A program made the position numbers and the translations under genes. A DNA stretch of 49,486 nt from a virus: the IMG/VR virus record IMGVR_UViG_3300045257_000116, positions 1 through 49,486 of that record. One strand, given 5' to 3'. Positions 2,839 through 49,466 of the stretch are shown here, piece by piece. Position 1 is the stretch's first letter. Each line of letters opens with the position of its first letter. Under the pieces are notes generated by a model, which was not told the origin of the DNA, did not search any database, and was given only the letters and a program-made list of their open reading frames with translations.

Positions 2839-3044
2839 GCGACAAGGCCGTCAAATTCATGCGCGATCAAACGTTCAGCAATGACTTGGTCATTTCAGGC
2901 GGCGTCACGAAGGGCGGTCGCGTGACCTACCTCCTGCAAAGTGGTGCGAGCTACACGCTCGATGACGCGGATATCAAGACGCTGGACCGCTACCGCTTCA
3001 AGCCGAGATACGCACCCGCATCGAGAGAGGGAGAAAAGGGATGA
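2835..3044 (+). CDS. Hypothetical protein
   Basis: 69-aa ORF, translationally coupled on both sides by 4-nt overlaps. Confidence 0.55.
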   Translation: MSDKAVKFMRDQTFSNDLVISGGVTKGGRVTYLLQSGASYTLDDADIKTLDRYRFKPRYAPASREGEKG

Positions 3045-3901
3045 GCGCACCAGACTATAGCGTCCTTTTCGAGTGGGTCACAAAGCGCGAGGCCCTGCGC
3101 GTACTAAAATCCTCCGGCGCGCCCCACCCTTGGTCAGACGACCCTATTTTGACGGAGTTCCGATTCTGCAATGTCAGGCGCGAAGACGATATCGGCACGA
3201 TCTGGATTCGCGAACACATCCGCGAGCCCTTTGCCGATCACCCTATGCTTTGGCTGATGCTGTGTATTGCACGCCAGATCAATTGGCCTGATACGCTCGC
3301 CGAAATGATCGCCGGAAAGTGTTGGCCCTCCGAACCGCAATTTGATCCGTCATGGATTACCGCCTTGCTTAACTGGCGGAAAGAGCGTGGCGCGAAGATT
3401 TACACTGGGGCCTACATGATTTCCGCGCCATCAACCAAGGGCGCGGATAAGCAGGCCTATATTGCCGAAGACGTGATCGGCGGTCTGTGGAAACGACGAG
3501 ATTTCCTGGGAAGGTTTGAGGGCGCAACGCTTCAGCGGACGCACGAGCGGATCACGCAATCGAATGGCTGGGGCCAGTTCATGGCATATCAAGCCATTGT
3601 CGATATGCGCTTCACAGCCTTGCTGGAGAACGCATCCGATGCACAGACATGGGCAGCAGCCGGACCGGGCACGGTTCGTGGATTGAACCGGCTCTATGGT
3701 CGCCCCGTTGCTGGCGGATTAGCGCAGGGCCAAGCGCTTAGCGAAATGCGGGCGATATACAAAATCGTCCAGCAGGAAACCGGCGTCGCCATGGATTTCA
3801 GCGACGTGCCAAACATCCTTTGCGAGACCGACAAATATCTCAGGGTGCGGCAAGGCGAAGGAAAGCCACGGGCGCTCTATGTTGCCGGGAGGGGATCATG
3901 A
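3041..3901 (+). CDS. aGPT-pyrophosphorylase-like protein (putative DNA base hypermodification enzyme)
   Basis: 286-aa ORF. The N-terminal block GAPHPWSDDPILTEFRFCNVRREDDIGTIWI matches my memory of the W-x-DP-IL-x-x-(Y/F)RF(C/T)NV-x-RE-x-D signature of alpha-glutamyl/putrescinyl thymine pyrophosphorylase families. Not verified by search. Confidence 0.45.
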   Translation: MSAPDYSVLFEWVTKREALRVLKSSGAPHPWSDDPILTEFRFCNVRREDDIGTIWIREHIREPFADHPMLWLMLCIARQINWPDTLAEMIAGKCWPSEPQFDPSWITALLNWRKERGAKIYTGAYMISAPSTKGADKQAYIAEDVIGGLWKRRDFLGRFEGATLQRTHERITQSNGWGQFMAYQAIVDMRFTALLENASDAQTWAAAGPGTVRGLNRLYGRPVAGGLAQGQALSEMRAIYKIVQQETGVAMDFSDVPNILCETDKYLRVRQGEGKPRALYVAGRGS

Positions 3902-4203
3902 CCGACACACGCGCAGCGAGGCTAGCTGAGATCGAACGGCGCATTGAGGCGTCAAAGATTCACTGGCTGACCAAGGCTCCCGAGGGGTCAGGCCAGCCCA
4001 GCGTGTTCGTCACAAACGTCGATGAAATGCGCTGGCTCCTAGACCAACTCACCCTCGCCAACAAACAGGCCGGGGAGATGGCGATGCTGTTGCGGGATGG
4101 GGCAGACGCATTGGAAAGTCGGTCACTTCAAGAATGCGCGGGTGACGATCTTGCTAACGGCATGTTATACTTTGCGTACCCACTGAGGCCGCAATATGAT
4201 TAG
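3898..4203 (+). CDS. Hypothetical protein
   Basis: ORF 3820..4203 trimmed to ATG 3898 (ATGA overlap with the upstream stop). 101 aa. Confidence 0.55.
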   Translation: MTDTRAARLAEIERRIEASKIHWLTKAPEGSGQPSVFVTNVDEMRWLLDQLTLANKQAGEMAMLLRDGADALESRSLQECAGDDLANGMLYFAYPLRPQYD

Positions 4204-5008
4204 CGCATTCGACTCGGCTAATCAGGTCTGGGCGCTCGTATGTGGGCTTCCGCCGGGGAAAAGAGAGCGGCGGCTCATTATGGTCCTTAAGGCATTCTTT
4301 GACGGCAGTACCGAGGCTGGTGAGGCATTGATATTTGCTGGCTATATGGCTTCCGTGGAGACCTGGGCGAAGTTCTCAGAAGATTGGTCTGAGTTGCTTG
4401 CCGTGTCTCCGTCCATAAATCCACCTTTCAAGATGAAATCATTCTCACGGAATTTAGACCGTGCTGAAATACAGTACCAAGCAATTGCCCGTGCGGGATT
4501 AGCTGGAATAGGTTGTGCCATACCAATTCGGCCACTCGTTAAAGTGGCTGATGAGATCGGGCTACCTAAGAAATGGAAAAACCCCTATTATCTAGCTTGG
4601 CGCATAATTATAACCGAGGCGATCAGAGGGGCAAATATTCTTGGTTCACAAGAGCCCATTGAATTCATATTTGATGATCAAAACGACAAAGTAAGAATTA
4701 TAGAATCATGGGATCGCTATTATCAGAGTATGCCAGGCGATATTCGTGAACGGGTGCGAGGCATTCCGGGTTTTAAGAAAGATGATGATCTCGCTCCGCT
4801 CCAAGCGGCGGACCTGATTGCTTGGTGGGGTCGGAAGCAATATCTAAAAGATAAATCCAGAATGAAAGACCTATTTCCTGGAAAATGGACGAACTATAAA
4901 GACCCGACGCTATTGTTTTCTCCATTATCTGAAAGTGTGATCAGGGATATCCTTCACCACGACATAGAGATGTTCAATAATGGGAATAGGTCTGGCGTTT
5001 CTGCGTAG
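4196..5008 (+). CDS. DUF3800-like protein (low-GC accessory gene)
   Basis: 270-aa ORF. LKAFFDGS near the N-terminus and LAPLQAADLIAW near the C-terminus resemble the two conserved DUF3800 blocks. Hand-counted G+C is about 38% in 4621..4680, versus about 57% in 21601..21660. The internal ATG at 4280 (MVLKAFFDGS) may be the true start. Confidence 0.5.
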   Translation: MISAFDSANQVWALVCGLPPGKRERRLIMVLKAFFDGSTEAGEALIFAGYMASVETWAKFSEDWSELLAVSPSINPPFKMKSFSRNLDRAEIQYQAIARAGLAGIGCAIPIRPLVKVADEIGLPKKWKNPYYLAWRIIITEAIRGANILGSQEPIEFIFDDQNDKVRIIESWDRYYQSMPGDIRERVRGIPGFKKDDDLAPLQAADLIAWWGRKQYLKDKSRMKDLFPGKWTNYKDPTLLFSPLSESVIRDILHHDIEMFNNGNRSGVSA

Positions 5009-5446
5009 CTATTCCTTCGATGTCCGCACGAAATACATGCAGTTCGGCATAGAGCATCCATGGCTCGCACCTGAGCGCATTTCATATCCTTCCGGAAGGC
5101 CATCTTTGCCGATGACTACTCCGGGGGGTATTTCGTCTCCGTGACGTATTGCAAACGCAGGCGGCGGGTCTAATGGCGCTGGCGTAGGCGAGTGATCTCG
5201 CGCCTGACTTGCTGCAACGGCCATGCCGGTTATCGCCAGAAGCGTTGGCGAAGTAGCGAATCCTATGACGGTTAGGACGGCCGCCAGCGCATTAACCAAT
5301 AGACCGGGGAAATCCCCCGATCCCGCCGATGATAGCAATCCGATAAGGGTAATCAGAGCTGCGATCGGCACAAAGATCACGCCGAATGTTAAGATTCCCA
5401 GCACCGCGAATATGCAGGCGAATATGCCAGCGATCATAGGTCCCAT
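5009..5446 (-). CDS. Small integral membrane protein (3-4 TM helices plus about 70-aa soluble tail)
   Basis: ORF 5009..5581 trimmed to ATG 5446, which is preceded by GAGGGAGG. Hydrophobic runs include IAGIFACIFAVLGILTFGVIFVPIAALITLIGLL and LLVNALAAVLTVIGF. Its stop codon abuts the DUF3800-like stop (TAGCTA). Confidence 0.55.
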   Translation of the reverse strand: MGPMIAGIFACIFAVLGILTFGVIFVPIAALITLIGLLSSAGSGDFPGLLVNALAAVLTVIGFATSPTLLAITGMAVAASQARDHSPTPAPLDPPPAFAIRHGDEIPPGVVIGKDGLPEGYEMRSGASHGCSMPNCMYFVRTSKE

Positions 5447-5871: not shown

Positions 5872-6801
5872 TTAGCCGACCCGGTGACGAGTTGTTTGAT
5901 AGGTTAGGCGCTTGCCGACGACACCGGCAACCATGCGATCGGTGCGGTCAATGTCGTTCACGCCAAGCGCGATCCGGTTCGAATGGCGGAAGTCGAACTC
6001 GTACAGGTAACGCTTCAGGTGCTGTTCGGATACGTGCTGGTAGACGCCCGCCAGCCCGCGCTTCAGGATGCTGAAATAGCCTTCCACCGTGTTCGTGGTC
6101 ACTTCGCCACGGGCATATTCGCCCTTGCTGTGAGTGACGGTGGAATGCTTGTCGAAAGCGTACATCGCGCCGCTATAGAACGAAGCCTCATCGGTCATCA
6201 GGTGGCTATCGCCAGCGATGTGACGGGCCAAGATCGGGCCGACAGTGGCGCTGTTGACGTTGCGGACGTGGAATGAGCGGACAAGGCCATTGCGCTCTAC
6301 CAGCGACAGGATAGCGTGCTTGTGAGCAAGCCCCCGACGAACCGGCGCACCCAGTTTGAAGCCGTAATAGGTCTCGTCAACCTCAACCACCTTGCCTTCG
6401 CCGCCCATCGGGGGAAGCGCAGCGCCACCGTCCGACATCGCTTCGCGGATACGGTGAGACATGAACCAAGCGGTCTTGAGAGTAACGCCGATGGTGCGGT
6501 GAAGCTGCTGCGTGCTGATGCCCTTCTTGCTGGATGACATCAGGTACATGGCCTGAAGCCACACCTTCAGTTCGATGTGGGAGCTTTCGAAGATGGTCCC
6601 GACCTTCACGGTGAAAGGCTTGCGGCACTGGTAGCACTTGCGGACGCCGTGGCGGGTGCTGTCGCCCTTCAGTTCGCCAATCCGCTCCGTGCCGCCACAA
6701 TGGGGGCAGATCGGACCATTCGGCCAAACCCGCGCCTCTACGAACTTGTAGGCGGCGGCTTCGTCGTGAAAGTGCTTTGCGCTGAGAACTGACTTGGACA
6801 T
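5872..6801 (-). CDS. IS1595-family transposase
   Basis: 309 aa. It has the N-terminal zinc-ribbon PNGPICPHCGG...CYQCRKPF typical of IS1595 transposases, followed by a DDE-type catalytic region (VVEVDETY..., LMTDEASFY, NTVEGYFSILKRG). GGAG lies 7 nt upstream of the ATG. Confidence 0.85.
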   Translation of the reverse strand: MSKSVLSAKHFHDEAAAYKFVEARVWPNGPICPHCGGTERIGELKGDSTRHGVRKCYQCRKPFTVKVGTIFESSHIELKVWLQAMYLMSSSKKGISTQQLHRTIGVTLKTAWFMSHRIREAMSDGGAALPPMGGEGKVVEVDETYYGFKLGAPVRRGLAHKHAILSLVERNGLVRSFHVRNVNSATVGPILARHIAGDSHLMTDEASFYSGAMYAFDKHSTVTHSKGEYARGEVTTNTVEGYFSILKRGLAGVYQHVSEQHLKRYLYEFDFRHSNRIALGVNDIDRTDRMVAGVVGKRLTYQTTRHRVG

Positions 6802-8736: not shown

Positions 8737-8807
8737 TGATACTCACCTTAACCCTTAGATCGCAGAATGGGTCTTGCTCTGGCTGTGACTATTTTGTGGG
8801 CGGCGCA

Positions 8808-10226
8808 TCAGCGAGCGTGACATGTGACCTTAACGATATCACCGGCAGTCCATGCAGCTGCGGTACCCGCGGCGGCAAAGTTGGTCAATGTGACGGACGT
8901 GGTTGAACTCGCCGTTTGCTTGGTCATGAAAACCGTCGCGCTTGTCGTGGTTTCATCGTTCGCGAAGCATGACCATGCGTTCGGAGCCGCCAACATCGTG
9001 ATCGTTCCGGTAGAAGCGGTGCCGCCACTTCCGATGGTGATATCAAATTCGAACGTGCCAATGCCCGCGATGGCGGGGCTTGTTCCGAAGCCGGACCCAA
9101 TAACAGGAGGCACATCGTATCCGACGATGGAGCCGCGAATATTAACCTCGCTGCTGGTCGTGGCGGTAACGGTCGTGCCGCCGCCAATCACGAGGTTCCC
9201 AGTTCCGCTGGTGAGCGTGTTGCACGAATTTGTACCGACGCAGATATTATTCGATCCAGTCACAAGCTGCCCTGATTTAGCACCGAGCATGACATTGTTT
9301 GATCCGGTAGTGAGCGCCTGACCAGCCGAGAACCCGGCTATAAGATTATCAACCGAACTGATGAGGTTTGTCCCCGCCTGACTGCCGAGGATTGTATCTT
9401 CCTGACCGGTATAGATACCGGTCGAAAGTGCGAATGTGCCAACCGCGACGACATCGTGACCGGTGGTGGTTAAGCCGCAGGATTTGTATCCAAGGCAAGT
9501 ATCCTGGCTGGCGGTCGTGCCGGAGCCGAGCGATCCGCTGCCGATAGCGACATCCTTTACACCGGATGTAACCACAGTCATCGCGCTCGCGCCGACTGCT
9601 GTATCGTCCGTCGCGGTTGTTGCGCCCGTGGCCTGCATGGCAGCATTGCCGATGGCGACATTATTGCCAAGGGTGGAAGACGACGCTGAGCCGGTCAGCG
9701 CACTATAGCCAATGCCGACACTAGTCGTCATGTTGCTGTTGCGGCCAGCCGCGACGCCGATAAGCACGGTCTGATTCAGTGATGTTACAGTCGCCGCTGC
9801 ATCACCGCCGATGATAACATCATTGTTGCAGTTCGTTAGGCACCCGCCAAGCGCATTGATTCCGACCGCCGTCAGGAATGTGAAGCTGGCCCCGTCGCCG
9901 TTCCCCGCCGCGTTCCATCCGATAGCCATATTTTCCGGGCGCTGAAGAGTGTCCGAACCAAGAGCCTTGAACCCTATGGCCGTGGTCAAATAGTCGCCTG
10001 ATGGCAGAAGCGCTCCTGCACCCGCGCCGATCAGCGTGTCGCAATTGTTTAGGCATGTGCCGAATGGGGGAAGGGCCAAATTTCCGCAGCAAATGTTGAC
10101 TACGGTTTGGCCGTTCTGTGCGTATCCAGTCGTCGGAGCATTGAAAGGGAAGGGATTCTCCGGACCTTGCGCGAGCGCTGCGCTCGAAAAGAACAGCGCG
10201 ATAATGAAGGCGATAAGATGCTTCAT
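8808..10226 (-). CDS. Secreted Gly/Thr/Ser/Ala-rich repeat protein (YadA-head/tail-fibre-like repeats)
   Basis: 472 aa with the Sec-type signal MKHLIAFIIALFFSSAALAQ. It carries Cys-rich N-terminal motifs and degenerate repeats of the type NNVAIGNAAMQATG / DTAVGASAM / VAIGSGSLGSG. Confidence 0.6.
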   Translation of the reverse strand: MKHLIAFIIALFFSSAALAQGPENPFPFNAPTTGYAQNGQTVVNICCGNLALPPFGTCLNNCDTLIGAGAGALLPSGDYLTTAIGFKALGSDTLQRPENMAIGWNAAGNGDGASFTFLTAVGINALGGCLTNCNNDVIIGGDAAATVTSLNQTVLIGVAAGRNSNMTTSVGIGYSALTGSASSSTLGNNVAIGNAAMQATGATTATDDTAVGASAMTVVTSGVKDVAIGSGSLGSGTTASQDTCLGYKSCGLTTTGHDVVAVGTFALSTGIYTGQEDTILGSQAGTNLISSVDNLIAGFSAGQALTTGSNNVMLGAKSGQLVTGSNNICVGTNSCNTLTSGTGNLVIGGGTTVTATTSSEVNIRGSIVGYDVPPVIGSGFGTSPAIAGIGTFEFDITIGSGGTASTGTITMLAAPNAWSCFANDETTTSATVFMTKQTASSTTSVTLTNFAAAGTAAAWTAGDIVKVTCHAR

Positions 10227-30695: not shown

Positions 30696-30980
30696 TTAGC
30701 CGTAGCCGGAGCCGTAGCCGTAGCCGGAGCCGGAGCCGTAGCCGGAGCCGGAGCCGTCGCCGTAGCCGGAGCCGTCGCCGTAGCCGTAGCCGTCGCCGTA
30801 GCCGGAGCCGGAGCCGTAGCCGGAGCCGGAGCCGTAGCCGTAGCCGGAGCCGTCGCCGTAGCCGGAGCCGGAGCCGGAGCCGTAGCCGTAGCCGGAGCCG
30901 TCGCCGTAGCCGGAGCCGTCGCCGTAGCCGGAGCCGTCGCCGTCCAGATCGCTCCGCTCACCTAAGAGCATCTTCGCCAT
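30696..30980 (-). CDS. (Tyr/Ser/Asp)-Gly dipeptide-repeat protein
   Basis: 94 aa: MAKMLLGERSDL followed by 41 X-Gly dipeptides (X = 16 Tyr, 17 Ser, 8 Asp). The ATG is 1 nt after the upstream stop (TAATATG), and the gene ends in a double stop TAATAA followed by a terminator. Confidence 0.6.
   Translation of the reverse strand: MAKMLLGERSDLDGDGSGYGDGSGYGDGSGYGYGSGSGSGYGDGSGYGYGSGSGYGSGSGYGDGYGYGDGSGYGDGSGSGYGSGSGYGYGSGYG
30699..30944. repeat. 246-nt hexanucleotide-periodic tandem repeat
   Basis: The plus strand is built only from gccgta, gccgga and gccgtc units. All six frames are open, which is why several ORF-track entries overlap here. Confidence 0.95.
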
Positions 30981-36587: not shown

Positions 36588-37274
36588 TCAAGCCGGAATA
36601 GGCGCGCTCGACAAAAGCTCGATCAGTTTGTCTGATGCCCTGACCCAATACGCCTGACGGGCGGCGTAGGCGGCGTAGGCGTCGGCGGCGTAGGCGGCGT
36701 AGGCGGCGTAGGCGTAGGCGGCGTAGGCGGCGTAGGCGGCGTAGGCGTCGGCGGCGTAGGCGGCGTAGGCGGCGTCGGCGTCTTGCCGTGCCTTTATCCA
36801 GCGATCGACAGTCGGGCTCGTACCGGTATCGATGAATTCACGATAAAGCGCCGCAACATCATCGAGAGCGGCGCGCTGTTTCGATCCATCATTCGTCCGC
36901 TGCGGTAACTCTTCGGATAGCAGCCACAGTGCAAATCGCGGCCATACCATAGCGAGATCAGCGCCCGGCTGGATGGCGGACGCGAACCGCTCGGGCCATG
37001 ACTGCGAAGCGCCATTATCCAGCGATTCGAACATCCGATCTTCAAGTTCTGCGAGAATTCGGGGAATGCCGAGATGTTTTTCGTATTCGCCGTGATCTTC
37101 GTGATCGATTTCTTCGCCGCCACGCAGGGCGACAGCCTCCAGTGTGCAGCCGACCGCACAGCCTTTGCCGTCTTCCCAATACTGGCCCTTGACGAGTTTA
37201 TCGGCCTGGCGGTGGATTTCGAGTTCGTTGAGAACGAAAATCTTGAGAGACGGATCGTTGTTGTAGGCGAGCAT
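36588..37274 (-). CDS. Hypothetical protein with C-terminal Ala/Tyr/Asp repeat
   Basis: ORF 36588..37334 trimmed to ATG 37274 (GAGGAG 8 nt upstream). 228 aa. A globular N-terminal part is followed by DADAAYAAYAADAYAAYAAYAAYAYAAYAAYAADAYAAYAA. Confidence 0.6.
   Translation of the reverse strand: MLAYNNDPSLKIFVLNELEIHRQADKLVKGQYWEDGKGCAVGCTLEAVALRGGEEIDHEDHGEYEKHLGIPRILAELEDRMFESLDNGASQSWPERFASAIQPGADLAMVWPRFALWLLSEELPQRTNDGSKQRAALDDVAALYREFIDTGTSPTVDRWIKARQDADAAYAAYAADAYAAYAAYAAYAYAAYAAYAADAYAAYAARQAYWVRASDKLIELLSSAPIPA
36661..36782. repeat. Triplet-periodic tandem repeat (ggc/gta/gtc units)
   Basis: The plus strand is composed only of ggc, gta and gtc triplets. It encodes the Ala/Tyr/Asp tract on the minus strand. 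Confidence 0.9.
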
Positions 37275-37330
37275 GTTCGGGACTCCTCGGGTTGGAACTT
37301 TTGGGAATATGCCGATATGGCGAAATTCTG

Positions 37331-37483
37331 TCAATGAATATCTTGCATCCTGTCGGGTTGCGGCGCTTGCGGAGTCCCGGCCTCAAGCGCCGCGTTCGGA
37401 CTATCGCTGAAACATGAGCTAGATCGCAAGGATGAAAACGCCACCGATGCGGCCAGGCCCATGAGTGCAGCACCGAGTTTCAT
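37331..37483 (-). CDS. Small secreted/membrane peptide (50 aa)
   Basis: ORF 37331..37630 trimmed to ATG 37483 (GGAG 9 nt upstream). MKLGAALMGLAASVAFSSL is signal-peptide-like. Confidence 0.4.
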   Translation of the reverse strand: MKLGAALMGLAASVAFSSLRSSSCFSDSPNAALEAGTPQAPQPDRMQDIH

Positions 37484-37560
37484 GGCGTTACTCCAAAGCG
37501 CGCGCGGGACGTTGCGTATCGGGAGGGAGATGCGCCTGAAATCGCCCAATTTCTCGATCC

Positions 37561-37674
37561 GTGACACATGTGTCAGATGTGACGTACTTTTCCCTATAAC
37601 GCTTATACGCGCATACGCGCGCGCATACATGAGTGCTATAGGGAAAATGTCGTCACTTCCGTCACATGTGTCAC
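37561..37674. repeat. 38-nt imperfect inverted repeat arms flanking a 28-nt alternating pyrimidine-purine tract (origin/operator candidate)
   Basis: Arms 37561..37598 and 37637..37674 match at 30 of 38 positions as reverse complements. They contain multiple GTGAC/GTCAC pentamers and the 14-bp palindrome TGACACATGTGTCA. The centre, 37604..37631, is a perfect (YR)14. Confidence 0.8.
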
Positions 37675-37676
37675 GG

Positions 37677-40025
37677 TCACAGAAGTTCGTTCTCGGGAAA
37701 GCGCTGATCGCGAAAACTGGATTGATCGGAAATCACTGAAATCAGGCGAAATTTCCGCGCTGAATTGCTTCTGATTGGAATGTATCCCTCTTTTGAAAGC
37801 ACCTGGGAAAACGATTTCGATGTCCCTGGATACTCGCCGTTGCGGTCGCACCACTTTGCCCATGAGCCGAATAGCCTTCCCACGGTGTCCTCGTAGTGCT
37901 GTCCCGTCTCGCAGCACTCGGCAACCCATTGATGAAATGTGTTCTGATCCTCGAAATATTCCTGGGTTGATTCCGTAACGATTGGGGGTGGCGCTAGACC
38001 GATCCTTTGCCAGAGCAGGCAACCCTCGATCATCCAGTTGAGGATACCGGGCCATTCTGCTTGCAGCTTTTCGTCAAGGTCTTTGTCGATCACGCTTGGT
38101 TTGTTCGTGAACGGGATCATGTGAAACCGGCGGCGAACGGCTTCATCGACCGTCTTAAGAGCTGGCTTGTTATTGCCGGCGATGAGGATTTTGAATGTCG
38201 GCAGAAACGTGAAGGGATCGCCCCGCATGACGCGGGCTGTGATCGGATCGCCACCGGTCAGCGACTTGATCTTGGCTGTTGCCCAATGCTTGCCTTCCTC
38301 GACCTCCTGCGCCGTGACCATGCGTGCGCCGTGGAGGAATGCTATCTCGGTCGCGTGCTGTTCGTGCTTGGACGCCGTGAATGTCGTCATGCTCGAAACC
38401 TTGGCATAGTCCTGCATGATCGCAGTTAAAGTATTCAGAAATGTACCCTTGCCGTTTCCGCCGTCGCCATGGAAGAAAAAGAGCGCGTGTTCCTTGACGC
38501 TGCCCGTCAGGCAATAACCCGAAACACGCTGCAAGTAATCGATCAATGCCCCATCCTGGCGCGTGGCATCTTCAAGAAACTGGTTCCAAACCGGACACTC
38601 GCCCGAAACGCCGGCCGCTGTGATCTTGGTGATCCTATCGCCAGGACGAGAATCGCGGAGTTCTCCGGTCTTAAGCTCGACTGTCCCATCTGGCGTTGCG
38701 AGCAACCACGGGTCGCCGTCCCAATCTGATGACACGGTTGCAATCCTCGGGTCAGCTCGTGCGAACCTTTCGGCACCTCCCGCGGTCGATGCCTTGGCCG
38801 TCCCGCGTTCTGCCTTAATGTTCGATGATCTGGCAATCTCGCGCGCATAGTGAAATGCGAGGCTCTTGCGCTCGGGACGCCATCTGTTGCCGTCCCATTC
38901 CAGCCAGGTGTTCTGATCGTGGCAATACCGCAGGATGTTCGAGAACTTGTCCGCGAACGCGAGCGCGATAGCATCCTCGTTCGCTGCGATCTGAACCGCG
39001 TCTGTCGCGATGAAGTTTGACCAGCTCGCGGCGCGTTCCTCGATCCATTGTGCGATGAAATCAGGCGTCCATCGCGCTTCCTCGACATCGGCGGCATCCC
39101 AGCCAGGTTGCGATGGATCTGCATTGACCTGGACAAGCCGGATCGAGCGCGCGATCCCCGTGATCTTATTCGCGATATCGATCATGCAACTCGTGCCGAT
39201 CTGCTCGGCCACCGGCATGATCTCGCCAGCCTTCGAGTGATCGGGCGGATATGCCAGCGCGTCGGCATCGGGCCACAGTACGACATCGCGGCCACCGAGC
39301 GGCGCAAAGTCCGTGAATTTTGCCGCCTTGCTTCCCCCTGCCCATGTCATGGCAACGTAGCCCGGCAGGAGGCGCTGCGCTGCGTCTGTCGCCTTCTCCC
39401 CTTCGCAGAGTACCACCGGCTTTCCAGCGCCATCAGCGAGCCTGTCCAGGCCGTATAACGGGCGCGGCGCGGAATAGTGGCCCATTCCCCATGACCACGT
39501 TCTGCCGCCATCAGTGCTGCCGACAGTCCATTGTGGCGTGATCTTCTTTTTCTTCGCGCCATCGATCACGTCATAGCGAGCGACATAGAAGATGAGTTCG
39601 CCGGCCGACGATCGATATGCCCAATATGACGATGGCTCGCCCCACGCATAGACATCCATATTCGGGAGGCCATCCGCCTTCTCGGCTGGACGGGTGAGGC
39701 GTTGCGCCTTTTTGAGCAGCGCCTTCTTTGGAAATGCCGCGATGGTTTCTGTCTTGTCCGTCATAATGGCGACGGCATCGCGGAAATCTACGGAATGGTA
39801 TTTCTGGATGAAGTCGATCGCGTCACCGCCGACGCCGCAACCATGACAATGGAACCGCTCTTTATCCTCGCCGGCGTAGACCGTGAAGCTCGGGGTGCGC
39901 TCGGCGTGGAAGGGACACAGACCTTTATATTCTCGTCCGTCTTTCTTCAGGGCAACGTAGCGGGATATCAGTTCCGGCAGGCTGACCGATGCCAGGAGTT
40001 CCGATAGATCGGTGCGCGCGCTCAT
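37677..40025 (-). CDS. Bifunctional DNA primase / P4-D5-type helicase
   Basis: 782 aa. It has the CHC2 zinc finger CPFHAERTPSF...HCHGCG at the N-terminus and the Walker A GDGGNGKGT in the C-terminal half (P4-family primase C-terminal / SF3 helicase pattern). Confidence 0.85.
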   Translation of the reverse strand: MSARTDLSELLASVSLPELISRYVALKKDGREYKGLCPFHAERTPSFTVYAGEDKERFHCHGCGVGGDAIDFIQKYHSVDFRDAVAIMTDKTETIAAFPKKALLKKAQRLTRPAEKADGLPNMDVYAWGEPSSYWAYRSSAGELIFYVARYDVIDGAKKKKITPQWTVGSTDGGRTWSWGMGHYSAPRPLYGLDRLADGAGKPVVLCEGEKATDAAQRLLPGYVAMTWAGGSKAAKFTDFAPLGGRDVVLWPDADALAYPPDHSKAGEIMPVAEQIGTSCMIDIANKITGIARSIRLVQVNADPSQPGWDAADVEEARWTPDFIAQWIEERAASWSNFIATDAVQIAANEDAIALAFADKFSNILRYCHDQNTWLEWDGNRWRPERKSLAFHYAREIARSSNIKAERGTAKASTAGGAERFARADPRIATVSSDWDGDPWLLATPDGTVELKTGELRDSRPGDRITKITAAGVSGECPVWNQFLEDATRQDGALIDYLQRVSGYCLTGSVKEHALFFFHGDGGNGKGTFLNTLTAIMQDYAKVSSMTTFTASKHEQHATEIAFLHGARMVTAQEVEEGKHWATAKIKSLTGGDPITARVMRGDPFTFLPTFKILIAGNNKPALKTVDEAVRRRFHMIPFTNKPSVIDKDLDEKLQAEWPGILNWMIEGCLLWQRIGLAPPPIVTESTQEYFEDQNTFHQWVAECCETGQHYEDTVGRLFGSWAKWCDRNGEYPGTSKSFSQVLSKEGYIPIRSNSARKFRLISVISDQSSFRDQRFPENELL

Positions 40026-48212: not shown

Positions 48213-48397
48213 GCATCGACTATTCAAATATTCAGAAGTTTACGCGCGATGTGGTTGAGCCCGCCATCGAACCGCCTGACTTGCTGGAATCGGCAGTCGG
48301 CTGGATCGCGGAAAATCTGGACCCCGAAGATGTTTTCTCGGACGCGGCTCTGCGTCTTTGGGCAAAAGATAACGGGTTAGTCGAGGATGAAGAATGA
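48209..48397 (+). CDS. Hypothetical acidic protein
   Basis: 62-aa ORF with ATGA overlaps on both sides. Confidence 0.55.
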   Translation: MSIDYSNIQKFTRDVVEPAIEPPDLLESAVGWIAENLDPEDVFSDAALRLWAKDNGLVEDEE

Positions 48398-48903
48398 CCG
48401 ACTTCAACCGCGCCCTCACAACACACCTCGCCGCTATCCGCCCGCTCGCCCGATACCTCGCCAGGAACCAGCCCGACGCCGACGATCTGATCCAAGAAAC
48501 CGCCGAGCGTGCGTTGCTGGCCCGAGACAAAGGCAGCTATGTCGAAACCGGCAAGATGCGCGAATGGCTGATTTGTATCCTGTATAATCGGTTCAAGCGG
48601 ATGAAGCGGAACGAGACGCGCAATCGGGTCGTGACGTTCGAATGGCTGAACGAGATCGATGTTGCCGACGAGTTCAATGCGCCGGCCGCATATTACAGCG
48701 CCGTCCTTGAAGACATGCGCGCGGCATTGGAGCGGATCAGGACCGAGCATTCGTCCGCGCTTCTGCTCGACGCGCTCGGGTTTTCGTATGACGAAATCGC
48801 GGAGAGGCATCAGATCCCCATGGGCACAGTTAAGAGCCGTTTGAACCGAGCGCGGGAGAAGATACGGGCCGAGGTTGAGGGTGTTGAGAGGGTGGCGGCA
48901 TGA
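48394..48903 (+). CDS. ECF-type (group 4) sigma-70 family RNA polymerase sigma factor
   Basis: 169 aa. The region 2-like segment is DADDLIQETAERALL...WLICILYNRFKR and the region 4 HTH is LGFSYDEIAERHQIPMGTVKSRLNRAREKI. Confidence 0.75.
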   Translation: MTDFNRALTTHLAAIRPLARYLARNQPDADDLIQETAERALLARDKGSYVETGKMREWLICILYNRFKRMKRNETRNRVVTFEWLNEIDVADEFNAPAAYYSAVLEDMRAALERIRTEHSSALLLDALGFSYDEIAERHQIPMGTVKSRLNRAREKIRAEVEGVERVAA

Positions 48904-49466
48904 CGGGCGATGATATGGAGGAATGGCGGGTAATTTCTGACTTTCCCTCTTATTCAGTGAGCAGCCTTGGTCAAGTTAAAAGGATCAAGACGGATGCTCG
49001 TGGTCACAGGGTAACCGGAATTCCGCTGAAGCCATCGCCATCAACAAGCGGATATCTCTTTGTTTCTCTTTGCGACGGGAAGGGTCGAAAATCTGTACGC
49101 ATAAATCGGTTGGTGTGTCGCGCCTTCCACGGCGAGCCGCCGACATCGAAGCATCACGCCGCTCACAACAACGGACATAACCACGATAATAATAAAGACA
49201 ATTTGAGATGGGCCACTGGCGTCGAAAATGAAGCTGACAAACGCATTCATGGGACCGCGCGCATCGGTGATCGCCACTGGTCTAAGTCGATGCCGGAACG
49301 TAGGTCCAAAGGCGAGCGCCACGGACGGGCAAAGCTTACTGATGCAGACATTCCAAAGATACGCGCCGACACAAGATTTCAGCGTGCCATCGCAAAAAGC
49401 TATGGCGTTTCGCAAAGGGCAATTTGGATGATTAAAACTGGGAAAACATGGAGGCATGTGCGGTGA
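48900..49466 (+). CDS. Free-standing HNH homing-type endonuclease (NUMOD4 + HNH_3-like)
   Basis: 188 aa. WRVISDFPSYSVSSLGQVKR is NUMOD4-like and AAHNNGHNHDNNKDNLRWATGVEN is HNH_3-like. There is a C-terminal HTH-like tail. The 3' end lies in the terminal repeat. Confidence 0.75.
   Translation: MTGDDMEEWRVISDFPSYSVSSLGQVKRIKTDARGHRVTGIPLKPSPSTSGYLFVSLCDGKGRKSVRINRLVCRAFHGEPPTSKHHAAHNNGHNHDNNKDNLRWATGVENEADKRIHGTARIGDRHWSKSMPERRSKGERHGRAKLTDADIPKIRADTRFQRAIAKSYGVSQRAIWMIKTGKTWRHVR

What the first reader, a model, noticed from the sequence alone, without database searches (positions are those of the whole stretch)
37561..37674. Large imperfect palindrome with GTCAC iterons around a 28-nt alternating Py-Pu core, next to the primase-helicase gene
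Immediately after the primase/helicase stop (37677) lie two 38-nt arms (37561..37598 and 37637..37674) that match at 30 of 38 positions as reverse complements.

- The right arm has four GTCAC pentamers within 30 nt (cGTCACttccGTCACatgtGTCACgGTCAC).
- The left arm has GTGAC twice, plus the perfect 14-bp palindrome TGACACATGTGTCA.
- The 38-nt spacer contains a perfect (YR)14 tract (tatacgcgcatacgcgcgcgcatacatg, 37604..37631), which is Z-DNA or unwinding prone.
- No U-tract follows on the transcribed strand, so it is not a standard terminator.

Candidates are a replication origin or primase-helicase loading site, a cruciform, or a regulator-binding site.
Basis: seen in the sequence. Interest (0 to 1): 0.6.

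Follow-up and report, generated by a model that had tools for sequence, protein, structure and literature searches.

The report
Phage replication origin with Z-DNA-prone core
The palindrome just after the primase-helicase gene is very probably where that enzyme docks to start copying the phage DNA. It is a known kind of origin, but here and in about 80 related phages the centre is a GC-rich alternating purine-pyrimidine tract instead of the usual AT-rich stretch.

Summary
At 37548-37687 lies the strongest palindrome of this 49-kb circular phage genome. It has six GTCAC/GTGAC pentamers in two opposed sets and a 28-nt perfect Py-Pu tract; the next longest such tract in the genome is 12 nt.

The same layout recurs after homologous helicase genes in about 80 of 85 related loci. 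These include the cultured Acidithiobacillus phage AcaML1 and Ralstonia phage YO164_3.
- **Layout:** helicase stop codon, 2-4 direct iterons at a 9-11 bp period, an AT-enriched spacer of about 18 bp, an 18-29 nt alternating Py-Pu core, a second spacer, then inverted iterons.
- **What varies:** the iteron sequence differs between lineages and tracks the helicase's C-terminal winged-helix domain.
- **What stays:** only the alternation of the core is kept, and the core occurs in both polarities.
- **What it follows:** the D5-type helicase module, with or without a fused primase, whatever gene lies downstream.

Best reading (0.75): a SaPI/PICI/P4-type origin for a self-loading SF3 helicase, with a Z-DNA-prone core where SaPI origins have AT-rich DNA. 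Terminator, packaging site and telomere-resolution site are disfavoured. The scan noted the same kind of core before on other DNA (e1-3322910).

The parts
37677..40025 (-). Primase-helicase gene (782 aa). Domains: DnaG-type CHC2 zinc ribbon, DUF6371 region, D5_N, SF3 ATPase (DUF5906), and a C-terminal winged-helix-like domain (about residues 680-765). Proposed initiator that binds the iterons.
   Evidence: Pfam and PHROGs. PDB sequence match to SaPI5 PriRep5 7OLA, E 6e-10. AlphaFold model of residues 343-782, pLDDT 89.9, ending in strand-helix-helix-strand-strand. Foldseek hits to ASFV C962R, poxvirus D5/E5 and 7OLA_A (TM 0.69/0.68).
37652..37680 (.). Gene-proximal iteron set: four NGTCAC repeats, all in one orientation, starting at 37652, 37661, 37670 and 37676 (spacing 9, 9, 6). 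The last overlaps the primase stop codon (37677-37679).
   Evidence: L028 also has its stop codon inside the first iteron.
37632..37651 (.). Inner spacer, AT-enriched (the 18 nt next to the core are 39% GC; the genome is 57.6%). Contains TATAGGGAAAA (37637-37647), the perfect inverted partner of 37588-37598.
37604..37631 (.). Core: 28-nt perfect alternating pyrimidine-purine tract TATACGCGCATACGCGCGCGCATACATG. It is not self-complementary and contains two copies of CGCGCATAC. Proposed site of a structural transition or of melting.
   Evidence: Longest YR run in the genome, 28 against 12 for the next. YR runs of 16 nt or more sit at the same place in 62 of 85 related loci. An 18-mer is identical in L028 and the L033 group. 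The estimated B-Z onset is near superhelical density -0.037; this is my own rough calculation from published energies.
37584..37603 (.). Inner spacer, AT-enriched (39% GC). Contains TTTTCCCTATA (37588-37598).
37561..37583 (.). Gene-distal iteron set, facing the proximal set. GTGAC at 37561 and 37579 (18 nt apart), with an oppositely oriented 4-of-5 copy GTCAg at 37572. Includes the perfect 14-bp palindrome TGACACATGTGTCA (37562-37575).
37548..37687 (.). Whole imperfect palindrome, taken here as the origin element. It lies within the 193-bp non-coding gap 37484-37676 and runs 11 nt into the end of the primase gene.
37331..37483 (-). First gene after the element: a 50-aa ORF (MKLGAALMGLAASVAFSS...) with GGAG 7 nt upstream of its ATG. 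It marks the boundary only and is not part of the element. It has no relatives among the downstream genes of the related loci.

Best explanation
The element is the phage's origin of replication. It is the docking and self-loading site of the primase-helicase encoded immediately upstream.

Inferred mechanism, none of it shown experimentally:
1. The C-terminal winged-helix domain of the SF3 (D5/PriRep-type) helicase reads the NGTCAC iterons.
2. The iterons form two opposed sets, four next to the gene and two or three on the far side. They repeat at about one helical turn, with about 68 bp between the sets.
3. One hexamer assembles on each set.
4. The DNA between them is deformed and opened. That stretch holds two AT-enriched spacers of about 18 bp around a 28-bp GC-rich alternating Py-Pu core.
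5. The helicases then move outward, the fused DnaG-type primase primes, and the host polymerase extends. No phage DNA polymerase gene was found.

The core is kept for its alternation, not its sequence. It most likely acts as a deformable or B-to-Z-switching segment, doing the job that the AT-rich centre does in SaPI origins.
For: 1. **Position.** The element starts at the helicase stop codon, as SaPI origins do (definition in PMC9371898, and the 2026 preprint).
2. **Conservation.** Among 85 loci with homologous helicases (34-52% identity), 62 have a YR run of 16 nt or more starting 32-88 nt after the stop, and 73 have 13 nt or more. Only 4 loci have such a run anywhere else. Of the 12 remaining loci, most still have iterons with an interrupted core, two have the element displaced by 1.4-2.1 kb, and three show nothing in the DNA held.
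3. **Repeats.** Every copy has 2-4 direct repeats per arm at a 9-11 bp period, inverted between arms. That is a protein-DNA signature.
4. **Cultured examples.** AcaML1 and Ralstonia phage YO164_3, plus a 65-kb circular Ralstonia record filed as a plasmid.
5. **Iterons track the C-terminal domain (CTD).** Iteron sequence differs between lineages (GTGACG, GTGACC, CTGACG, GCGACG, TAGGACAGG, GGGGCnGATGGGGCG and others). At 70-90% ATPase identity, CTD identity is 73-80% for the same iteron class and 54-56% for different classes. With CTD identity of 85% or more, 163 of 187 pairs share the class, and the exceptions listed (20 of the 24) are one-letter variants.
6. **Follows the helicase module.** The element follows stand-alone D5_N+SF3 helicases without a primase domain. 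It persists when the downstream gene is unrelated: 57 of 72 loci share one downstream family and at least 12 have others.
7. **Both polarities.** The core occurs in both polarities relative to the gene. The window's core is flipped relative to its closest sequence matches. This argues for a DNA-level site that works in either orientation.
8. **Protein fold.** Matches self-loading or replicative SF3 helicases, including SaPI5 PriRep5.
9. **No rival initiator.** No other initiator, DNA polymerase, integrase or protelomerase was detected in the genome.
Against: - There is no experimental or read-depth evidence.
- The CTD-iteron association could partly reflect physical linkage, since the CTD coding region abuts the iterons.
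- The centre is GC-rich, which is not what a classical unwinding element looks like.
- GC skew gives only a broad plateau (28-38 kb), not a sharp switch at the element.
- A different protein could bind the repeats.
- Three relatives show no element within the DNA held: L027 (its twin L026 has identical sequence here), L029 and L088. L027 and L029 have promoter-like sequence there instead.
Confidence: 0.75

Rival explanations
1. An RNA-level element. The long hairpin in the primase transcript would act as a factor-independent or Rho-assisted terminator, or as an RNase III processing site, separating early (replication) from late (packaging) expression.
For: The region folds strongly as a single strand. 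In the window it lies at the boundary between the replication and packaging modules. In most relatives the next gene starts under 30 nt after the last repeat, so the element is probably transcribed.
Against: No U-tract and no terminator-like site. No Rfam family above noise. An RNA stem does not need direct repeats at helical periodicity within each arm. The asymmetric core occurs in both polarities relative to the transcript. The alternation of the core has no obvious RNA rationale. The element tracks the helicase CTD rather than the downstream operon.
Confidence: 0.07
2. An operator for a transcription factor other than the helicase. Candidates include a late-gene regulator or a promoter used by the phage's own ECF-type sigma factor, controlling the genes downstream.
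For: Symmetric repeat arrays at one-turn spacing are also typical of operators. The window phage encodes an ECF-like sigma factor. Two relatives without the element have sigma-70-like promoter sequence at the same place.
Against: No promoter-like site was found in the window's gap. The downstream gene differs between lineages while the upstream helicase is constant. Iteron class follows the helicase CTD. A 3'-flanking site is an odd place for autoregulation.
Confidence: 0.08
3. A DNA processing site: a packaging signal (cos or pac), a protelomerase target like N15 telRL (whose centre is TATACGCGCGTATA, quoted from memory), or another recombination site.
For: In the window and in L028 the element lies upstream of the small-terminase gene, by about 2 kb and 0.3 kb. 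Inverted repeats around a CG/TA alternating centre resemble enterobacterial telomere-resolution sites; this is my recollection, not a test.
Against: In 57 of 72 relatives the downstream gene is one shared family whose N-terminal motif suggests a RuvC-like nuclease (it was not run against a profile library), and none of the first downstream ORFs was recognised as a terminase. No protelomerase, integrase or other recombinase was detected; every ORF of 250 aa or more was scanned. The 28-nt centre is not self-complementary, which a hairpin-forming resolution site requires.
Confidence: 0.04

Closest known systems
SaPI / PICI replication modules (pri-rep-ori or fused PriRep-ori; Staphylococcus aureus pathogenicity islands SaPI1, SaPIbov1, SaPI5)
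   Same: The origin lies immediately downstream of the helicase ORF. It has penta- or hexanucleotide iterons, at least two on each side, pointing in opposite directions around a central region. The initiator is a self-loading SF3 helicase with a C-terminal winged helix (PMC9371898; preprint 10.64898/2026.10.17.759575). The window protein matches SaPI5 PriRep5 in sequence (E 6e-10) and in fold (TM 0.69). Both fused and unfused primase versions occur.
   Different: The centre is a GC-rich strictly alternating Py-Pu tract, with only two AT-enriched spacers of about 18 bp beside it, rather than an AT-rich region. The element is shorter, about 130-140 bp against about 300 bp, with 5-7 iterons. The primase domain is DnaG/zinc-ribbon type. 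The carriers are complete tailed phages of Proteobacteria, not satellites of Firmicutes. No binding or replication data exist.
Phage P4 alpha protein with ori and crr
   Same: A primase-SF3 helicase fusion whose C-terminal winged-helix domain binds short iterons, with a cis site next to the 3' end of the gene. This is established knowledge, not re-checked here. Database sources name homologues of this protein 'P4 family' primases.
   Different: P4 needs two separated sites (ori and crr) built from the octamer TGTTCACC. No second comparable iteron cluster is seen in the window; the best elsewhere is 4 pentamers in 120 nt at 8785. P4 has no alternating Py-Pu core that I know of.
Core origins of SV40 and papillomaviruses (SF3 helicases large T antigen and E1)
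   Same: Pentanucleotide or hexanucleotide sites in inverted arrangement direct assembly of two SF3 hexamers. An imperfect palindrome is part of the melted region (established knowledge).
   Different: There the binding sites are central and the melted segments flank them. Here the binding sites flank the centre. There is no homology between the DNA-binding domains.
N15 / PY54 / phiKO2 telRL protelomerase sites
   Same: Inverted repeats around an alternating CG/TA centre. This is a resemblance recalled from memory.
   Different: No protelomerase gene is present, the centre is not a perfect palindrome, and the element is linked to the helicase gene. It is not a member.

Membership tests
SaPI/PICI-type Rep-ori module | The ori lies immediately downstream of the rep or prirep ORF | tested here: met
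   The first iteron overlaps the stop codon. The same placement holds in 73 or more of 85 relatives.
SaPI/PICI-type Rep-ori module | Penta- or hexanucleotide iterons, at least two on each side of a centre, pointing in opposite directions | tested here: met
   Four GTCAC and two GTGAC, plus one 4-of-5 copy. Relatives have 2-4 per arm.
SaPI/PICI-type Rep-ori module | AT-rich central region | tested here: not met
   The centre is a 28-nt Py-Pu tract at 57% GC in the window and 69% on average in 62 relatives. Only the two flanking 18-nt spacers are AT-enriched: 39% GC here, and 48-49% against a 63% locus mean in relatives.
SaPI/PICI-type Rep-ori module | The initiator is a hexameric SF3 (or MCM-like) helicase with a C-terminal winged-helix DNA-binding domain | tested here: met
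   D5_N and DUF5906 domains. 7OLA sequence hit. Model with a C-terminal strand-helix-helix-strand-strand unit and Foldseek TM 0.69 to 7OLA_A. Hexamer formation is inferred, not tested.
SaPI/PICI-type Rep-ori module | Rep binds its cognate iterons specifically, and gene plus ori replicate autonomously | not testable with these tools
   Indirect only: iteron class co-varies with the CTD.
P4 alpha ori/crr system | Two separated cis sites carrying the same iterons | tested here: not met
   There is one cluster of 6 pentamers. The next best window has 4 (8785-8894, partly inside a tail-gene ORF) and has no palindrome or YR tract.
Protelomerase target site (telRL) | A protelomerase gene in the genome | tested here: not met
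   None among the ORFs scanned with Pfam and PHROGs.
Protelomerase target site (telRL) | Perfect dyad symmetry through the centre | tested here: not met
   The 22 nt between the arms and the 28-nt tract are not self-complementary.
Intrinsic terminator | GC-rich hairpin followed by a U-tract on the transcribed strand | tested here: not met
   No such site in 37484-37700.
Z-DNA-forming sequence | Uninterrupted alternating purine-pyrimidine tract rich in CG and CA/TG steps | tested here: met
   14 Py-Pu dinucleotides: 6 CG, 4 CA/TG and 4 TA. Energies are from PMC3024258, Table 1.
Z-DNA-forming sequence | Actual B-to-Z transition at physiological supercoiling | not testable with these tools
   My rough estimate puts the onset near superhelical density -0.037. 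No experiment.
cos/pac packaging site | Conserved linkage to the terminase genes | tested here: not met
   57 of 72 relatives share one non-terminase downstream family, and none of the first downstream ORFs was recognised as a terminase. A terminase lies close by only in the window and L028.

The most novel reading that the evidence does not exclude
In a large family of proteobacterial phages, the melting centre of a self-loading SF3 helicase origin has been replaced by a Z-DNA-prone tract. Selection keeps its purine-pyrimidine alternation rather than its sequence. The origin would then fire through a supercoil-dependent B-to-Z (or similar non-B) transition, whose junctions give the helicase its first unpaired bases. 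That would tie initiation to the superhelical state of the phage DNA.
Probability: 0.3. Interest if true: 0.8.

Novelty: new variant of a known kind. Interest (0 to 1): 0.6.

Why it matters
How ring helicases that load themselves open duplex DNA is still unsettled, as the 2026 PriRep5-ori preprint says.

- This is a natural series of about 80 origins. The binding sites vary with the helicase's C-terminal domain, while the centre is kept only as an alternating Py-Pu tract.
- That gives a direct way to test whether a non-B transition can replace AT-rich melting.
- It also allows specificity residues to be read off from iteron and C-terminal-domain pairs.
- It supplies an unannotated origin for AcaML1-like phages and for the Ralstonia prophages that carry this module.
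- It gives a simple rule for finding such origins in metagenomic phages: a YR run of 16 nt or more within 100 nt after a D5-type helicase stop codon.

Tried and rejected
- **GC skew.** The raw cumulative maximum is at 38246, but the detrended curve is a plateau from 28 to 38 kb. Inconclusive.
- **Close relatives.** None exist. The best primase homologue is 42% identical over full length, or 50% over the helicase half, and a DNA search of cultured phages finds only a short AcaML1 match.
- **Exact search with the arm palindrome GTGACACATGTGTCA.** Returned 22 unrelated hits. I judged this chance level and did not follow them up.
- **Rfam.** Only noise-level miRNA hits.
- **Telomere-resolution idea.** Dropped: no protelomerase and an asymmetric centre.
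- **Packaging idea.** Dropped after looking at downstream genes in relatives.
- **Cruciform.** Judged unlikely on my own rough energetics. The two hairpins of about -41 kcal/mol each cannot pay for unpairing about 140 bp, given 24% arm mismatches. This was not computed with a dedicated tool.
- **Homologue of the gene that follows the element in AcaML1-type phages (motif suggests RuvC-like).** None in the window.
- **Literature.** No paper in the library holds these core sequences or describes alternating Py-Pu cores in iteron origins.
- **Other palindrome scores.** The next two (36712, 30812-30872) are tandem repeats, not palindromes.

Full report
**Context.** The window is a complete uncultivated-virus record (IMG/VR class 'direct terminal repeats', CheckV 100%). 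Its first and last 127 bases are identical, so it is a circular assembly of about 49.36 kb.
- Genes from about 45.3 kb down to 5 kb run on the minus strand. In order they are an SNF2-type helicase, a DNA methylase, small ORFs and the 782-aa primase-helicase (37677-40025). After the gap under study come a 50-aa ORF, two unknown ORFs, small and large terminase, portal, head and tail genes.
- A plus-strand operon crosses the record's start. It holds an ECF-type sigma factor, an HNH endonuclease, a RecE-like exonuclease and a 5-hmdU DNA kinase.
- No DNA polymerase, integrase or protelomerase was detected.

**Observation.**
- The 38-nt arms pair at 32 of 38 positions, not 30, and the symmetry extends to 59-nt arms at 76%.
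- The dyad at 37617.5 is the best in the genome: 49 of 70 mirrored positions pair, against a mean of 17.9 (sd 3.9).
- The single-strand fold has z = -7.9.
- Six GTCAC/GTGAC pentamers fall within 120 nt. The best elsewhere is four, and 300 Markov simulations never exceeded four.
- The 28-nt Py-Pu tract is more than twice the next longest in the genome.
- The fourth proximal pentamer overlaps the primase stop codon.

**Relatives.** The phage has no close kin; the best full-length primase homologues are about 40% identical. The element nevertheless recurs.
- L028 (primase 39-40% identical) has GTGACAAAAGTGAC, a 29-nt Py-Pu tract and GTCACTTCTGTCAC directly after the stop codon.
- An exact scan for the 18-mer TATACGCGCATACGCGCG found 25 viral contigs. 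In 19 of them the match lies about 100 bp after the end of a homologous primase-helicase gene.
- I then fetched 80 loci with a profile of the protein and added those already in hand. Of 85 usable loci, 62 have a Py-Pu run of 16 nt or more beginning 32-88 nt after the stop, and 73 have 13 nt or more. Only four loci have a run of 16 nt or more anywhere in the remaining 4-10 kb.
- Of the 12 apparent exceptions, most keep the iterons with an interrupted core (L066, L072, L076, L105, L118 and, more loosely, L073). L098 keeps only three iterons. In L089 and L030 the complete element lies 1.4 and 2.1 kb away; in L030 the intervening DNA holds opposite-strand genes. Three show nothing in the sequence held.
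- Cultured or named examples exist: Acidithiobacillus phage AcaML1 (3x TCTGACGG, GTACACGCGCGCGCGCGTA, 2x CCGTCAGA), Ralstonia phage YO164_3 (2x GTGACC, TACGTGCGCGCACGCACGCGTA, 2x GGTCAC), and a 65-kb circular Ralstonia record filed as a plasmid.

**Anatomy of the family.** The order is:
1. helicase stop codon;
2. 0-30 nt;
3. 2-4 direct iterons at a 9-11 bp period;
4. a spacer of about 18 nt that is 15 points lower in GC than the locus;
5. a core averaging 22 nt and 69% GC, made of 52% CG, 33% CA/TG and 15% TA steps;
6. a mirror-image spacer;
7. inverted iterons.

The spacers also pair with each other (TTTTCCCTATA / TATAGGGAAAA in the window). The iteron sequence changes between lineages: GTGACG(G), GTGACC, CTGACG(C/G), CCGACG, GCGACG, TAGGACAGG, CGAAGGGAT and GGGGCnGATGGGGCG. 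The core changes too, but almost only in ways that keep the alternation.

**Which partner the element belongs to.** Four results point to the helicase.
- It follows stand-alone D5_N+SF3 helicases of 441-477 aa that lack any primase domain, as well as fusions with other N-termini. So it goes with the helicase-CTD module, not with the primase type.
- The downstream gene is one shared family in 57 of 72 loci (its N-terminal motif suggests a RuvC-like nuclease) and unrelated in at least 12 others, including the window.
- The core has a polarity, with a TA-rich end and a GC-rich end. Both polarities occur relative to the gene (33 against 17 loci). The window's core aligns with its closest matches (L084, L028, L033) only when flipped relative to the primase gene (scores 48 against 18, 45 against 29, 44 against 23). 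A transcript-level signal would be expected to keep one orientation.
- Iteron class follows the C-terminal domain. At equal ATPase identity (70-90%), pairs sharing an iteron class have 73-80% identical CTDs and pairs differing in class have 54-56%. Among pairs with CTD identity of 85% or more, 87% share the class, and the exceptions listed are one-letter variants. Among pairs below 55%, 8% share it. Physical linkage between the CTD codons and the iterons may contribute to this, and I could not separate the two.

**The protein.** It carries a DnaG-type zinc ribbon, DUF6371, D5_N and DUF5906 domains.
- The helicase part matches SaPI5 PriRep5 (7OLA) by sequence.
- A confident model of residues 343-782 (pLDDT 89.9) ends in a strand-helix-helix-strand-strand unit typical of winged helices.
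- The model matches ASFV C962R, poxvirus D5/E5 and 7OLA_A (TM 0.69/0.68).

**Comparison with the known kind.** SaPI origins are described as 6-12 penta- or hexanucleotide iterons immediately downstream of rep. At least two lie on each side of a central AT-rich region and point in opposite directions. They are bound by the winged helix of the self-loading Rep, presumably one hexamer per side (PMC9371898; preprint). The window element meets every sequence-level criterion except the AT-rich centre.

That centre is the novelty. It is a GC-rich tract of the composition most prone to the B-Z transition (energies in PMC3024258). From those energies I estimate onset near superhelical density -0.037 for the window's tract. 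This is a rough two-state calculation of my own and not a SIBZ run. The value is within reach of total bacterial supercoiling but not clearly of its unconstrained part. Whether the tract flips to Z-DNA, is simply easy to deform at Py-Pu steps, or is read by the protein remains open.

**Rivals.**
- A terminator or RNase III hairpin is disfavoured by the missing U-tract, the periodic direct repeats, the two polarities and the link to the CTD.
- An operator for another regulator cannot be excluded, but it does not explain why the constant neighbour is the helicase.
- Packaging and telomere-resolution sites fail on gene content and on the asymmetric centre.
- A free cruciform is unlikely because of the mismatches.

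**Limits.** All evidence is comparative and structural prediction. GC skew was uninformative. The literature library has no paper with these sequences or this design.

**Verdict.** This is a new variant of the SaPI/PICI/P4-type helicase-origin module, widespread in AcaML1-like phages, with a Z-DNA-prone centre. Interest 0.6.

Noticed in passing
window 3041-3901 (+): Encodes a protein with the helical domain of 5-hmdU DNA kinase (PF18723, E 1e-41). This suggests the phage hypermodifies thymidine in its DNA. The neighbouring ORFs (2060-2838, 3820-5008) have no strong family match.
   Followed up: no
window 48394-48903 (+): Phage-encoded ECF-type sigma factor (sigma-70 regions 2 and 4), next to an HNH endonuclease gene (48900-49466). 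Its promoters were not searched for.
   Followed up: no
window 5872-6801 (-): IS1595/ISXO2-family transposase gene (zinc ribbon plus DDE domain) inside the phage genome, between the plus-strand operon and the tail genes.
   Followed up: no
window 36642-36790 and 30700-30980: Two tandem-repeat tracts. The first is about 16 copies of the 9-nt unit GGCGGCGTA inside ORF 36588-37334 (-), the second ORF after the origin. The second is an array with a 6/12/18-nt period. Both score as pseudo-palindromes only because of low complexity.
   Followed up: partly
window 8785-8894: Second-densest GTGAC cluster in the genome: four copies, including CGTGACATGTGAC, which resembles part of the origin arm. It lies around the 3' end of the tail-fibre-like ORF 8808-10226 (-). 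It has no palindrome and no Py-Pu tract, so it is probably chance.
   Followed up: partly
L034 (IMGVR_UViG_3300029390_000072), about 5130-5200: A microvirus contig (F capsid protein and a replication-initiation protein) carries the same 18-mer. It sits within a mostly alternating Py-Pu stretch of about 55 nt, in AT-rich DNA, just after its Rep gene.
   Followed up: partly
L053 / L054 (IMGVR_UViG_3300027968_000004 and 3300005607_000020): Three GTGCCGAC direct repeats lie next to a mostly Py-Pu tract of about 65 nt that contains the same 18-mer, in 45-50 kb phage contigs. No homologue of the window's primase-helicase was found in the 7-13 kb fetched. It could be an origin of another replication module.
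   Followed up: partly
L030 6394-8600: In this relative the iteron/Py-Pu element (3x GTGCCG(G), ACACGCGCGCGCGTACACG, 4x CGGCACT) lies about 2.1 kb beyond the primase gene, with opposite-strand genes including an ArdC-like gene in between. This looks like an insertion between the gene and its origin.
   Followed up: partly
L026/L027 6454-6530 and L029 6511-6610: Two of the closest full-length primase relatives lack the element. They have sigma-70-like promoter sequence (TTGCAT-N17-TAGAGT; TTGACA-N17-TATTGT) directly after the primase stop codon. Where their origins lie is unknown.
   Followed up: no
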